A stretch of 63,859 nucleotides of DNA, counting the filler, from Intoshia linei (lineage: Eukaryota > Animalia > Orthonectida), in the NCBI GenBank assembly GCA_001642005.1. It is 5 parts of 5 records of this genome, joined end to end, with 100 filler letters (N's around TTAATTAATTAA, not from the genome) between each part and the next. Parts side by side here need not be neighbours in the genome. Positions count along the whole stretch, not along the records: positions 1 to 24,950 come from LWCA01000516.1; 4 more parts are not named here. One strand, written 5' to 3'. A program made the translations under genes and the position numbers. The notes beneath the pieces are model-generated. The model ran no database searches, was not told the DNA's origin, and worked only from the letters and a program-made list of their open reading frames with translations. Of the stretch, positions 15,363 to 21,300 are shown piece after piece (the first letter of the stretch is position 1; the number at the start of each line of letters is the position of its first letter).

Positions 15363-18300
15363 TTATAAAAGTTCATATTGTCGCAAATGCATTCGTTGTA
15401 TTATATCGCGACAATCATTAAAAACTCTTTTAATGTTTTCAGTGTCAACTGCACAGGTAAAATGAGGATAACAAAAATGTTTAGAATCTCTTTGATCTTT
15501 TGAGTTTGATATGGTTAATTTCTAATGAAATAATAATTAACATAATTACAATGAAAAATAATTACCAAAAATTGATCACGTATAAAAAATTTAGCTCGTA
15601 AAACTTCTGAATCTTCAGATCTATCATCTTTTACTAAAATATAAAATAATATATTTTAAAGTATATAAATACCGTCACTAGGAATAAGATAGGTTGAAAA
15701 ATCACTGAAATAGTTTTCTAGTTTTGATATTCCGCTGAGTATTTTTTCAGTCAACAAATCTTGTTTGTTTAAGAAGAGTATAACGGAAATATTTTTTAGC
15801 CATCTATATAAAAAATTATGAATTATTGCATAGCTAAATTACGTTATCACCGATTATTCCATATCATGGTAAAGAGGTCCAAAGATTCCCTTAAGCGGTT
15901 TTGTTTATCGTCCTCCCTGAGTACCATATTGTAGCTTGAACAAGCAGTCACAAATATAATTGCCGTAACGTCGTTAAAACACTGTATCCACTTTTTTCGT
16001 TCATCTCTCTGTCCTCCGACGTCAAACATGCTGAAATATTTATGTTTATATGTATTTACATTATAATTTATTACTGAAATTGGACTTTGTCAATGGAAAA
16101 TCGTGTTTCAAATATACCAGATGTTAGAACTCGACATCGCAAAATATCCTATGTAATATAGTTTGTATTATATTTTTATTTTATTATTATTGTATTTATT
16201 AATATTTAATTTGGATAAAAGATATAATTTGTTACCTGTTCTACAGGGAAATAATCTTCTTTTGCAATTTCATTGTTTCTATCCAAAAAACTATTTAAAA
16301 TTTTAATAAAAATAAAAATTATTGTATAAAAAAATTAAAAGAATCTTGAAATTAAAATTTATAATTTTAAAATATCTATTAAAACGTTAGATATTATTTA
16401 GTTAATTATTATTTGTTATGATAAATAAAATTACTATTTGGCACAATCAATAAGTTGAAATTCATGGGATCGATCAAAGGTTTGTTTAATGCCTTTATCT
16501 TTCCAAAGACGATCGATGTGTTCAAAAAATATGTTGGGGTATTCGTATTCAACAACGTTGGCTAAGCTTTGAATAAAATCAACACATTCTTGATTTCTTT
16601 CCACTTCTAGCGTAACGGGTGGGTCTATTCTGCTCATGGCACCAGTTAAAACCTATATAATATAAATATTTAATAATACATTTTAAAATTACAAGCATAG
16701 CATCTTTTATATTTCTCTTTATATCTTTGATTTTTATTTGGCATTCTCTAATTTATAAAATATTAAAATGATATAATTATTACATTTTAATTAAAAGGTG
16801 TATTTTTTTACCGAAAAATTACACCTCCACTATTTTTCGATTCCGTTATTTAATCAAAAAAATTTTATTTTTACAAATTTCAAACTCTAATGGAGAAATA
16901 CTGCATCAAATTTAACAACGATTTAAAGATACAACCTTAGATATCTATACGGACACAAAGTATCAAAGTATCACAAACGAAACTAAAAGTTATATAAATT
17001 TGTTAATATCATTTTTATATTTATTACAATCCTTTGCAATATTGGTGAAATTCGACTTAAATATGTTTATAAAGTGAAGATTCGGTTAATTATTGATACA
17101 TAATTGGTATTTTTAAGTATTTATTAAATTGGTAGTGAATATAATCATCACATCACAATGTGATAAAAATGGACAAAGACATAAAATTGATGTTTCCAAT
17201 GTTATATTTAGTTGGTTCGAACTTTAATTATTTTATTTCTATGTATGATATTTCTAAAAAATATAAACACGATGTCAATAATAACACAGGTAATAAAATA
17301 TATTTTTTTAGAAAAAGAAGTAAAATCAAAGTTAGACAGTAAACCAAAGAAGAGGAAGCCACCAGTAATAAAACCGGAACATTCTAAAGTGTTGGTGGGA
17401 GTGAAGATCAATACAAACAGTAATAATGATTGCTGGTACTTTCGTAACCAAAGATCTTTTTAGAACGATTGATATCCACTCGATCATTAAGGCAAGGGCT
17501 TACTTAGAAGTAACTAAAGCTCACATGGTGAACTTTAAAGACCTTTTGAGAAAAGTTGCTGTGTCCCTTGTTACTGAGCTCTTAACAATGTACTGTACTT
17601 CTATCAATAAAAACTACACGTACATCACGGTATATCCTAGCAAAGGAAAAAACGTTGAAAAAAATTGTTCATATTGTACCTGTTTCAATTTGAATAACTC
17701 GAATAAACATATAATGCTTTGTACTGACAAAGATCCTCAATTTTATTTGTGTTATAGACGAGTTGAAAATAAAACGAAGACGAGAAAAAATAATAAACGA
17801 GATAATGAAAATAATATAGATAAAAATAGTAAAATTAGGAAAAACAGTGGTAATAAATCTTTATCAGATTTAGATGGTCCGAAAGGAGCTGTCTTGTCTG
17901 ATCATAGGCTACCTAAAGTGGAACCTATTGAACCCGGAACCGTTTTAATGACTACAAAAAGCATCTTCACTAATGATGTATATGGCCTGTCGTATGATGT
18001 CAACAGTAATATGTCAAGATAAATAAATATTATAGATATATATATATATTTATATTTATATATATAGATAATTTAATGTCAAGCAGGTTACGTTCCTGCG
18101 TTCAAAGACCATGAAGGGAAACGTGTATTGGATAAAACTAAATGTTTGACATATATAACCCCATCGTAAGATTCAAGAGCTGTTCTATTTAGTGAAGATT
18201 TATATACCAAGAAGAGAGTCTTAGATCTACAGTACACAAACAATAATGTGGAGACATTGCGGAATTTCCTATACAGCAAGATAGGTACAGCAGAGCAAGT

Positions 18301-21300
18301 AGACCCACTGATAGTTGCGAGTTACATGTATATTTTGGCGAAAGAAGGATTCGGAAAATTTTTGGAAGAGGTCAACTGGAACACCGTATGTGTTTGTAAA
18401 CCAGGAGAGTTGGCTGGACTTAAAAATTTTGTGAAGGTGACTGAGTCAGAACATACTTTTGAAAATCCGGTTGATTGTCCGGATGTTTCAAAGTATACAT
18501 ACGGGATTCTATTATATTATCTTTCACATTTAAAGATTAAAAAGGATTTAAACATAGACCTAGCTGGTTATAAAACTAAAACAATGGAAAGAGTAAAAGA
18601 GATCCTAAGGGTAAGCAATGTGATGCTTCCCTTAGATATATAGATAAATATTATATTATTAATATAAATATTATAGATATATAGTATATTATTTATAAAG
18701 AAATTTCCTCAATTTATAATAATATGTTTTCACTCTCGCTTAAAAAGGCGTGCAAGTGTACTATAGATTCAAATTACGACTACAATCAACCGAAAGGTAA
18801 AATGGTCAACGCAAGTAACCATTGGGTCAATAGTCTGTTTAGTCCTATATTTAGAAGTCTATTGAACAGATTGAGAAAAATTTGAAACCATCAATTTGCT
18901 TGTCAATTGGATATGGCGTGGAAAAACTGGAAAACTTTACCAACACATACTCTCATTAAAAGGACAAATATATAGAAATTGATATGTCGTCATTCGACAA
19001 GTCACAGAATACTTTATCCGTACAATCATTTATGTATTTGTATATCTTGTTAGGTCTGCCGAATGAGTTTGATGTAATGTGGGACGACTTGCACCGATAT
19101 ACAAGGTCAGTCAGTAGGAATGGATTAAGCTTCTTTAAGTTTTATCAGACTCAGTCTGGTGATCCATCTACGGCCTTTGTTAATACGGTGTATAATATAA
19201 ACGCTTGCGCAAATATCCTATTAAAACATAACTGGAACTACGCCTATTCATGGGAGATGATATTCTAATATATAATATCTAATCTAATATATTAGTACAA
19301 GAAATAAATGTAACGATCAGTGATATTCAAGAATTTTCTAGAAAATTCAATTTACCTGCTAAAGTTTTAAAAAGTGATATAGGTTATTTTTGCGGGAATT
19401 ACCTAGTGAAGAACGATAAATCTGTGAGACTGTTACCAGATCCTGTCAAAACGTTAGAAAAACTTAGTCATACTACAATAAATAACTAAAAAATTAGCTG
19501 AACGATTCTTAAATTTCAAGGACTTGACTAGTTTTTACAATAACGTATTGTATAACCAACTATTAACGGATGCGGTTTGTCACATAATGAATCATCACAT
19601 TGAAAATAACAAAATAGATTGAAGGATATTGAGTCTTGAGAGTAACAGTTTATTAATTAATTATTAATTAGTTTAAACAATTTTAATTATTATTACTACT
19701 CCCTTCTTTTAGAAAAGATATTTAATAGTCATTTAAATATTTGGGATATTTTAAGTTTTTACGTAATCTGAAACGCGGGTGAGTTTTATTAACAATTGGA
19801 TTATGACAATTAATTCAATTCATTAATTTTTAATTTTTTTCCGGTTGATTGTCATCCCTAAACTAAGGAAGTTTTATAAAAAAAATAACTAAAGCTTTGA
19901 TTCATATATTTAGATTCAATTGCACTAATAGCAAGGAAATGTGGATTCAATAACGTTGAGGAAAAAATAAAAGATCAATTTATTGCTAGCTGTAAACACA
20001 GTAAATTACAGGAAAGACGTACAGAAAAAAACAGACAGAAATTGCAGGAAGTGATAGATTTCAGCAGACAGTTCGAAATTTTCAACAAACCAGCAAAAAA
20101 ATTGTCACAGTGCATTCAATGCGGACAATTATACAACAATTATCATTGTTTTTGTATCCAAGTAAGAAATTAAAGCTTATAAACTCATATATCATCAAAT
20201 AATTGAAAGTATAACTAAATTTTAAACATTAATATAACAGACTGTACAATGTGCAGTGCACATGCAAATAAGACCTGCTACCGAAACCGAGGTAACCAAG
20301 TTACTATACATAAGGACGCAGGCAGTCACGTAGTTATAAACAAAAAGAATGCACAGTTCTACACTAAAGGCTGGTGGAAAGTTAGACCATAGTGTTGACG
20401 ACTGATACACATGCGCCAGGACTTGTCAAGGATGCTACCATACGTCAGAAGAAAATTGTCAAGATTGAATATAAGGAGATCGAAAATTGCTCAGTTTTAA
20501 GAAGGTTGATAACAAAAAAATTGAAGTTGGGGAATCTCCCTGCTGTTGGTGTATCAATTATGTATATTTATAAAACCTTGGCCAGCGAGTTTATCTTGTG
20601 CAATCGAGAAATTCAGATTGATAAGTATGGAGATGAATCGTTCCCAATAGAAGGATAAGGTGATCACGTCGGATTATCCGATATATTGGACATAAAGTAT
20701 GGAGAAAAGAACATCGACAAGGCAGCTGAGGATTTAAATGAAGAAGTCGAAATAATTGAAAGGGACGTAAGAATATGTCTTTTTCCTATATTAGGTATAA
20801 GATTCTCCAAACCAGGTAATACCGTGGCAATGGCGTGAACATCCAAAGCGAAGACTTCTACACTCCAATATCGTTAAAACTCTCTTTACATGCCTCTAAA
20901 GGTTTATTCAGTCCACATGACATAGGTTTCCTGAAATTTCACGTTAAAAAGGAACCACAAAGAGAATTCCTACATAGAATTGCATTTGATACGGAGGTGA
21001 ATGGAAAATCAAGGAAGATATATGAAACATATCAAGGAGATGACCGCGGTACTATACAAGGTTCCATGAGGTTAGCAACCATAGCAACTATATATTATGA
21101 GGATGCTTCTTTGTCGCTGATAAAAAAATTCATGATAGAGGAGTATGGATTCATATTTATGGTTTCATACAGTAGCATGGACCAACGTATCAGATGAGAT
21201 TTGGAAGATGATGGAAGATTCAGAGCTTGGAGAAAGGGATTCTCTCATGTTTTTTCTGGAATTTATGCTATTTATGGCAATTTTTAAAATTGGACTGTTT

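What the first reader, a model, noticed from the sequence alone, without database searches (positions are those of the whole stretch)
18018..18700. Shared AT-rich junction motifs bracket viral fragment N #1
Seen: the exact 20-mer ATAAATATTATAGATATATA occurs at 18023-18042 and 18664-18683. The 12-mer ATATATAGATAA occurs at 18060-18071 and 18636-18647, at the two ends of the N #1 fragment. The junctions are patchworks of TAGATA/ATAAAT units. Inference: this is either a target-site duplication from repeated insertion at one site (a repeat-insert-repeat layout) or templated filler from polymerase-theta-type end joining. Low complexity weakens the significance.
Basis: partly seen in the sequence, partly recalled or inferred. 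Interest (0 to 1): 0.75.

Follow-up and report, generated by a model that had tools for sequence, protein, structure and literature searches.

The report
Copied AT filler in viral fossil
In an intron of the parasitic worm Intoshia linei, a broken rhabdovirus-like gene fragment carries two AT-rich patches that share an exact 20-base stretch; they are likely scars of error-prone break repair, one copied from the other, rather than a target-site duplication.

Summary
The 20-mer (18023-42, 18664-83) and 12-mer (18060-71, 18636-47) are exact and the 20-mer has no third close copy. It beats chance only modestly: 12-24 of 2000 composition-keeping shuffles reach 20; it is the best of 378 AT-patch pairs. 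The host is Intoshia linei (source name). The site is a cluster of viral-like fragments in a 6.2-kb G-alpha intron. A target-site duplication fits poorly. The motifs are nested (A..B insert B..A). A rhabdovirus-type start signal (AACAG) and an ATG in the N-like frame lie outside the left 20-mer, and a separate 8-bp duplication (ATGTCAAG) flanks the left block. So the left block likely interrupts the N fragment's own 5' end. It parses from the right block in 8 primer-and-copy steps (13-38 from eight other TA blocks; 0 and 2 of 300 shuffles). Best reading: iterative templated filler of the polymerase-theta type (0.55). The enzyme is inferred. No genome, reads, empty allele or POLQ gene could be examined, and other TA-alternating blocks occur away from viral pieces. 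A new example of a known repair signature.

The parts
16748..22920 (-). Large intron (about 6.2 kb) of a host G-protein alpha subunit gene; holds the whole cluster, whose fragments read antisense to the host gene
   Evidence: G-alpha Pfam hits on flanking exons; donor GT at 22920, acceptor at about 16748, boundary +-1 nt
17416..18001 (+). ORF B, unidentified; begins AACAGTAATA then first Met at 17426; likely a viral gene fragment; left neighbour of N #1
   Evidence: ORF 17405-18022; motif; no homologue besides its own gene model; no Pfam, PDB or Atlas hit; model pLDDT 35.9
18002..18018 (+). Rhabdovirus-type start signal AACAG (18002-06), ATG at 18011 in the N-like frame, first copy of ATGTCAAG (18011-18); likely the 5' end of N #1
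   Evidence: AACAG as N-gene start in a louse rhabdovirus (PMC4234470, passages)
18019..18075 (.). Left TA block, 57 nt, 2 G+C; holds 20-mer copy 1 (18023-42), a (TA)n run, an inverted 11-mer and 12-mer copy 1 (18060-71)
18076..18083 (+). Second copy of ATGTCAAG, directly after the left block; its ATG is not in the N-like frame
   Evidence: 288 of 196,931 random position pairs give such a duplication
18092..18637 (+). N #1: rhabdovirus-like nucleoprotein fragment, N-terminal part, one premature stop, 3'-truncated
   Evidence: 52% and 64% identity to two I. linei N-like proteins; PF00945 E=0.021 itself, 5.2e-9 for paralogue P0001
18633..18697 (.). Right TA block; permuted and partial copies of a 21-nt unit (18664-84); holds 12-mer copy 2 (18636-47) and 20-mer copy 2 (18664-83); first 5 nt overlap the last N-like codons
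   Evidence: (D2, 33-nt period)
18724..19486 (+). Plus-strand RNA virus polymerase (RdRP_2) fragment in several frames; right neighbour; its true 5' limit may lie further left
   Evidence: PF00978 E=6.4e-6, 3.8e-17, 6e-13; match does not extend left of 18724
19901..20170 (+). Retrotransposon gag-like fragment (lead)
   Evidence: Atlas feature score 0.91, zf-CCHC clusters (37-59% of members); Retrotrans_gag clusters at 0.87-0.88
20236..21270 (+). N #2: second, divergent N-like fragment; begins AACAG with ATG at 20249 where G+C rises
   Evidence: 39-aa match to P0003, pairwise E=1e-8; no Pfam N hit; G+C profile; motif

Best explanation
The two AT-rich blocks share an exact 20-mer and are likely filler DNA written during error-prone end joining, likely of the polymerase-theta type, with the left block likely copied from the right one. 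Shown: the shared strings, their nested order, the 8-bp duplication around the left block, the start signal and in-frame ATG to its left, and viral-like sequence on both sides of both blocks. Inferred steps: (1) N mRNA was reverse-transcribed to its 5' end. (2) Its cut 3' end was joined to the polymerase fragment through a block built by repeated anneal-copy-release cycles. (3) At a break 17 nt inside the N 5' end, the free end annealed by 2 or more bases to the right block 620 nt away, copied the 20-mer, slipped on (TA)n, copied two more pieces and rejoined, duplicating 8 bp. Steps 2 and 3 may be one event or two.
For: The left block parses from the right block in 8 primed steps, against 26 from its own flanks and 13-38 from 8 other TA blocks; shuffled right blocks do as well in 0 of 300 and 2 of 300. 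The right block ranks 1 of 54 AT patches for local self-repeat cover at 8- and 9-mers, 3rd at 10-mers; the left block has no local 9-mer template. Direct and inverted pieces are mixed. Both blocks start in register with the unit: AG on the left (18017-25=18642-50), TAGAT on the right, overlapping N homology that runs to 18637. Only 3 of 115 + strand ATGs in the intron have AACAG within 20 nt upstream: ORF B's first Met, 18011 and N #2's start; 17416 and 18002 share 10 nt, the longest of 45 pairs. N #1 covers the N-terminus: residue 14 of a solved nucleocapsid maps to about 18155. Patchwork, minimal priming and iteration are the described Pol theta signature (PMC12426944, section 6 read).
Against: The statistics are about 1% under the strict null, for a feature picked after the fact. 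Unweighted alignment ties with another TA block; shared 8-mers are not significant. The right block's parse from its downstream neighbour is not significant (23 and 21 of 300). Such inserts are generally under 25 bp and copied from the break flanks; these are 57-65 nt and the template is 620 nt away. The ATG at 18076 is out of the N-like frame, so a clean insertion plus duplication does not explain everything. The right-hand microhomology rests on one conserved residue in one paralogue. POLQ in I. linei was not checked. Direction of copying is inferred; other template-switching polymerases leave similar scars.
Confidence: 0.55

Rival explanations
1. The blocks are reverse-transcribed tails of a retroelement with an AT-rich repeat end, or products of reverse-transcriptase template jumping. 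The left block is a very short tail insertion with an 8-bp target duplication; the right block is a tail joined to N cDNA.
For: 8-bp duplication directly around the left block. All identified fragments read on + and three start at AACAG, which fits mRNA templates. A gag-like piece lies in the cluster. A block at 52425 shares a 12-mer and is the second-best weighted match.
Against: No third close copy of the 20-mer in 64 kb. No flanking duplication of 5 nt or more at the right block or at 5 other TA blocks. The left block mixes direct and inverted pieces.
Confidence: 0.15
2. A TA-rich site already existed between ORF B and the polymerase fragment; N #1 entered it and duplicated 20 bp of target, with inner filler added.
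For: Two exact direct copies enclose the N-homologous sequence. The out-of-frame ATG at 18076 is natural if that 8-mer is filler copied from the left flank.
Against: It needs a start signal and in-frame ATG to lie by chance just left of a 5'-complete N fragment (AACAG precedes 3.4% of intron positions). The copies do not abut the insert, the order is nested, no other fragment is bracketed, and no poly(A) is seen.
Confidence: 0.12
3. Two independent TA-rich stretches (slippage or untemplated filler) resemble each other by chance.
For: 0.6-1.2% of composition-keeping shuffles reach 20 nt, in a scan of many windows. 3 of the 5 most TA-alternating blocks lie outside the viral cluster; two of five falling within 700 nt has P=0.20.
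Against: Best of 378 and of 1431 real AT-patch pairs. 4 of the window's 7 TATAGATA words are in these two blocks. Parse test 0 and 2 of 300.
Confidence: 0.12
4. The layout is an assembly or amplification artefact at low-complexity DNA.
For: Draft scaffold with N gaps; AT-rich repeats; no reads examined.
Against: The region lies inside one 24,950-nt contig; host exons on both sides are colinear; the fragments carry stops and frameshifts, unlike a contaminating live virus.
Confidence: 0.06

Closest known systems
Polymerase-theta-mediated end joining (TMEJ/MMEJ) templated insertions, including T-DNA junction filler (PMC12426944: passages and section 6 read)
   Same: Patchwork of short direct and inverted pieces, priming by few bases, repeated cycles, joining of foreign DNA.
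   Different: Longer than usual (57-65 nt against generally under 25). The left block's template is 620 nt away. The foreign DNA is viral cDNA, and dependence on the enzyme is untested.
LINE-retroposed RNA-virus EVEs of mammals (PMC2987831, passages)
   Same: mRNA-derived, single-gene fragments.
   Different: Those span whole genes with target duplication and poly(A). N #1 is 3'-truncated with no poly(A), and the 20-mers do not abut it.
Non-retroviral EVEs of insects and the isopod Armadillidium (PMC2987831, PMC4231630, passages)
   Same: Decayed fragments of several RNA virus groups, with no obvious target duplications.
   Different: The host is an orthonectid, the cluster lies in an intron of a conserved gene, and junction filler is still readable. 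Clustering with LTR elements and antisense bias in mosquitoes is recalled, not read here.
hAT/MITE insertion with an 8-bp target duplication (recalled)
   Same: 8-bp direct repeat around a short insert.
   Different: The insert is 57 nt and 96% A+T, has no convincing terminal inverted repeats, and matches the neighbouring junction.

Membership tests
Target-site duplication (integrase or TPRT) | Exact direct repeat on both sides of the insert | tested here: met
   20-mer exact at 18023 and 18664
Target-site duplication (integrase or TPRT) | Repeats abut the inserted sequence, and all of the insert lies between them | tested here: not met
   33 and about 26 nt of further unit pieces intervene; the likely N start (18002-18018) lies outside
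Target-site duplication (integrase or TPRT) | Poly(A) tail at the insert's 3' end (TPRT) | tested here: not met
   none at 18637-18697
Target-site duplication (integrase or TPRT) | Empty allele with one copy | not testable with these tools
Repeat-insert-repeat array | Same repeat at successive inserts (3 or more copies) | tested here: not met
   2 copies only; none within 3 mismatches on +
Pol theta templated insertion | Insert is a patchwork of short pieces that map to nearby sequence | tested here: met
   left block 8 steps from right block, 0 and 2 of 300 shuffles; right block top of 54 for local repeats, but its parse test is not significant
Pol theta templated insertion | Pieces primed by microhomology | tested here: inconclusive
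   2-nt primers were imposed by the parse and are easy to meet in TA DNA; the 5-nt overlap on the right rests on one residue
Pol theta templated insertion | Generally under 25 bp, template in the break flanks | tested here: not met
   57-65 nt; left block needs 26 steps from its own flanks. The review gives size as a tendency, not a limit
Pol theta templated insertion | POLQ present in the host and required | not testable with these tools
   no genome held; search 'Intoshia' + 'end joining' listed 2 papers on other animals, not opened
Rhabdovirus-like N endogenous element | Homology to rhabdovirus nucleoprotein | tested here: met
   through paralogue P0001: PF00945 35.9 bits over cut-off 26, solved nucleocapsids E=0.008, 64% identity to N #1; N #1 alone E=0.021, and no hit when read through from 18077
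Rhabdovirus-like N endogenous element | Decayed and embedded in host DNA | tested here: met
   premature stop, truncation, host exons on both sides; not confirmed by reads
hAT/MITE insertion | Terminal inverted repeats inside the 8-bp duplication | tested here: not met
   only an internal low-complexity pairing 18029-49/18052-72; the ends match over 5 A/T bases by eye

The most novel reading that the evidence does not exclude
Both blocks were written from one reusable 21-nt AT-rich template carried by an enzyme (a telomerase-like or retroelement reverse transcriptase) that patches broken viral cDNA ends in orthonectids. Both blocks start in register with the unit and both contain its tail-to-head joint, as processive repeat addition would give.
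Probability: 0.07. Interest if true: 0.8.

Novelty: new member of a known kind. Interest (0 to 1): 0.36.

Why it matters
How cDNA of non-retroviral RNA viruses is joined into invertebrate genomes is open: the two surveys read report no target duplications in insects or an isopod. A junction that still shows templated filler points to host end joining for the ligation step and suggests a signature that can be counted across genomes. The locus also records rhabdovirus-like and plus-strand RNA virus infection of orthonectids. My searches found no paper with 'Intoshia linei' + 'endogenous viral' or 'Intoshia' + 'rhabdovir' (open-licence library only), though UniRef already names one paralogue 'Nucleocapsid protein'. 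One locus with about 1% statistics does not establish a mechanism.

Tried and rejected
Genome-wide count and allele or read test: not available, so both stay open. Exogenous viral relatives to fix the borders: none in IMG/VR or JGI metagenomes; the protein search returned only 3 I. linei proteins among 1121 candidates. Whether the right 20-mer is polymerase coding sequence is unresolved: the frame is open through it but for one stop, the Pfam match starts at 18724, and the deeper protein search never ran. ORF B identity: no hit; the model was too poor for a fold search. Hairpin reading of the left block rejected: its pairing comes from (TA)n. Repeat-spacer array rejected. MITE rejected. Longest-match parse against the whole intron was uninformative, since AT words match everywhere. 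Telomere repeat of Intoshia: the search listed 8 papers on other topics, none opened. N #2 does not align to N #1 (E=0.21). Earlier scan notes: none. Searches listed no paper whose title or abstract start describes templated filler at non-retroviral EVE junctions (listings only). No supplements were read.
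Full report
OBSERVATION. The 20-mer is exact at 18023-42 and 18664-83, the only 2 matches at up to 2 mismatches; 0 of 100 window shuffles give 2. The 12-mer is at 18060-71 and 18636-47. Both lie in blocks of about 60 nt with 2 and 3 G+C, the first and joint second most TA-alternating 50-nt windows of the 64 kb. Under a strict null that keeps each block's 2-, 3- or 4-mer content, 24, 15 and 12 of 2000 shuffles share 20 nt or more. Among real AT patches the pair is first of 378 and of 1431. Against this: shared 8-mers are not significant (393-541 of 3000), and an unweighted gapped alignment ties with a block near 49451. 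Weighted for composition it leads 45 pairs, 24.9 to 19.1 bits. The repeat is real, at about the 1% level.

SETTING. A gene model that matches this stretch at 100% is named Intoshia linei A3Q56_04157, on a 24,950-nt contig; the window's first long gap starts at 24951. That I. linei is an orthonectid, a reduced parasitic worm, is recalled. The blocks lie in a 6.2-kb intron (about 16748-22920) of a G-alpha gene on the minus strand. On the plus strand the intron holds, in order: an unidentified ORF B, N #1, an RdRP_2 fragment, a gag-like piece, N #2 and a possible membrane-protein fragment (by eye). The public gene model strings several of these into one 642-aa protein, probably an annotation artefact. 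N #1 is 64% and 52% identical to two other I. linei proteins; one passes the Pfam rhabdovirus nucleocapsid cut-off and matches solved nucleocapsids at E=0.008. No outside virus was found.

ANATOMY. N homology runs from 18092 to 18637 and includes the N-terminus, since residue 14 of the solved chain maps to about 18155. The right block (18633-97) is made of permuted, partial copies of a 21-nt unit (18664-84) with a 33-nt period; its first 5 nt overlap the last N-like codons. The left block (18019-75) holds the unit's first 20 nt, a (TA)n run, an inverted 11-mer of the right block and the 12-mer. The order is 20-mer, 12-mer, N, 12-mer, 20-mer: nested, not a plain duplication. First, ATGTCAAG ends at 18018 and starts again at 18076, exactly flanking the left block; 288 of 196,931 random position pairs in the viral-like DNA do this, and none of 6 other blocks has a duplication of 5 nt or more. 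Second, AACAG at 18002 precedes an ATG at 18011 that is in the N-like frame. AACAG starts the N gene of a louse rhabdovirus (PMC4234470, passages). Only 3 of 115 plus-strand ATGs in the intron have it within 20 nt upstream: ORF B's first Met, 18011, and the start of N #2. The sites at 17416 and 18002 share 10 nt, the longest of 45 pairs. I infer that 18002-18018 is the 5' end of N #1 and that the left block interrupts it. The ATG at 18076 is out of the N-like frame, so this junction carries more damage than a clean insertion.

MECHANISM. If part of N #1 lies outside the left 20-mer, the 20-mer is not a duplication of N #1's target, and the left block was added after the viral cDNA existed. A minimal anneal-and-copy parse builds it from the right block in 8 steps, against 26 from its own flanks and 13-38 from 8 other TA blocks; shuffled right blocks do as well in 0 of 300 and 2 of 300. 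The right block is the most locally self-repeated of 54 AT patches at 8- and 9-mers, while the left has no local 9-mer template, which suggests copying from right to left. The right block's own parse is not significant (23 and 21 of 300). Patchwork inserts, minimal priming and repeated cycles are the described mark of Pol theta, also at T-DNA junctions; such inserts are generally under 25 bp (PMC12426944, passages and section 6). I therefore favour iterative templated end joining (0.55). Shown: the strings, their order and the statistics. Inferred: the mRNA origin, the order of events, the direction of copying and the enzyme.

RIVALS. Retroelement tail or RT template jumping (0.15) explains the 8-bp duplication and the common orientation, but there is no third copy nearby. 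Target duplication with inner filler (0.12) explains the frame at 18076, but needs the start signal to be a coincidence. Chance (0.12): 3 of the top 5 TA blocks lie outside the viral cluster; two of five within 700 nt has P=0.20 and two inside the cluster P=0.055. Artefact (0.06): no reads were seen. A repeat-insert-repeat array is rejected, since no other fragment is bracketed.

COMPARISON AND NOVELTY. It works like a Pol theta templated insertion; membership is not established, because size and template distance are atypical and POLQ was not tested. It differs from mammalian LINE-retroposed EVEs, which have target duplications and poly(A), and resembles insect and isopod EVEs, where these are not apparent (PMC2987831 and PMC4231630, passages). 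Searches found no paper on Intoshia EVEs and listed none on templated filler at such junctions (listings only; subscription journals are mostly missing; no supplements read). Earlier scan notes held nothing. Verdict: a real feature, a new member of a known kind, interest 0.36. The boldest open reading, a reusable enzyme-borne 21-nt template, has probability 0.07. The genome-wide count, the allele test and the 5' limit of the polymerase fragment remain open.

Noticed in passing
window 17272-22450: All identified viral-like and gag-like fragments in the G-alpha intron read on +, antisense to the host gene; this may reflect selection or small-RNA production.
   Followed up: partly
window 17416, 18002, 20236: Three fragments begin with a rhabdovirus-type AACAG signal just before an ATG (3 of 115 ATGs), which suggests cDNA copied to the mRNA 5' end. 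ORF B may be an unknown gene of the same virus group.
   Followed up: partly
window 19644-19700: A third AT-rich patch after the polymerase fragment uses other words (TTAATT) and is directly preceded by AACAG.
   Followed up: partly
window 52416-52490 and 7170-7245: Two other TA-alternating blocks are each followed by a G-rich word that resembles a DNA-transposon end (recalled likeness; no partner found by self-BLAST). The 52416 block shares a 12-mer with the junction blocks.
   Followed up: partly
P0001 (A3Q56_01664) and P0003 (A3Q56_08266), other contigs: Further N-like copies in the same species. In P0001 the part matching the C-terminal half of P0003 precedes the N-terminal half (by eye), a permuted or tandem layout that could reflect a circular cDNA.
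   Followed up: no
window 17426-21197: The public gene model A3Q56_04157 (642 aa) splices ORF B, N #1, polymerase, gag-like and N #2 pieces together inside a host intron; likely an annotation artefact.
   Followed up: partly
window 20826-20942: This part of N #2 matches the C-terminal region of P0003 (E=1e-8) but lies upstream of a weaker central match; colinearity is unresolved.
   Followed up: partly
window 17272-17463: A short lysine- and proline-rich frame overlapping the start of ORF B, preceded by an A-run and AACAC; no Pfam hit.
   Followed up: partly
window 21681-22450: Frameshifted piece with a hydrophobic start and end, like a signal peptide and membrane anchor; possibly a viral glycoprotein fragment (by eye; no Pfam hit).
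   Followed up: no
window 17814-17824: An 11-nt match to the 12-mer motif inside ORF B, 200 nt left of the left block; a possible template or chance.
   Followed up: partly
window 61302-63358: Reverse transcriptase fragments on both strands (PF00078, PF17919).
   Followed up: no
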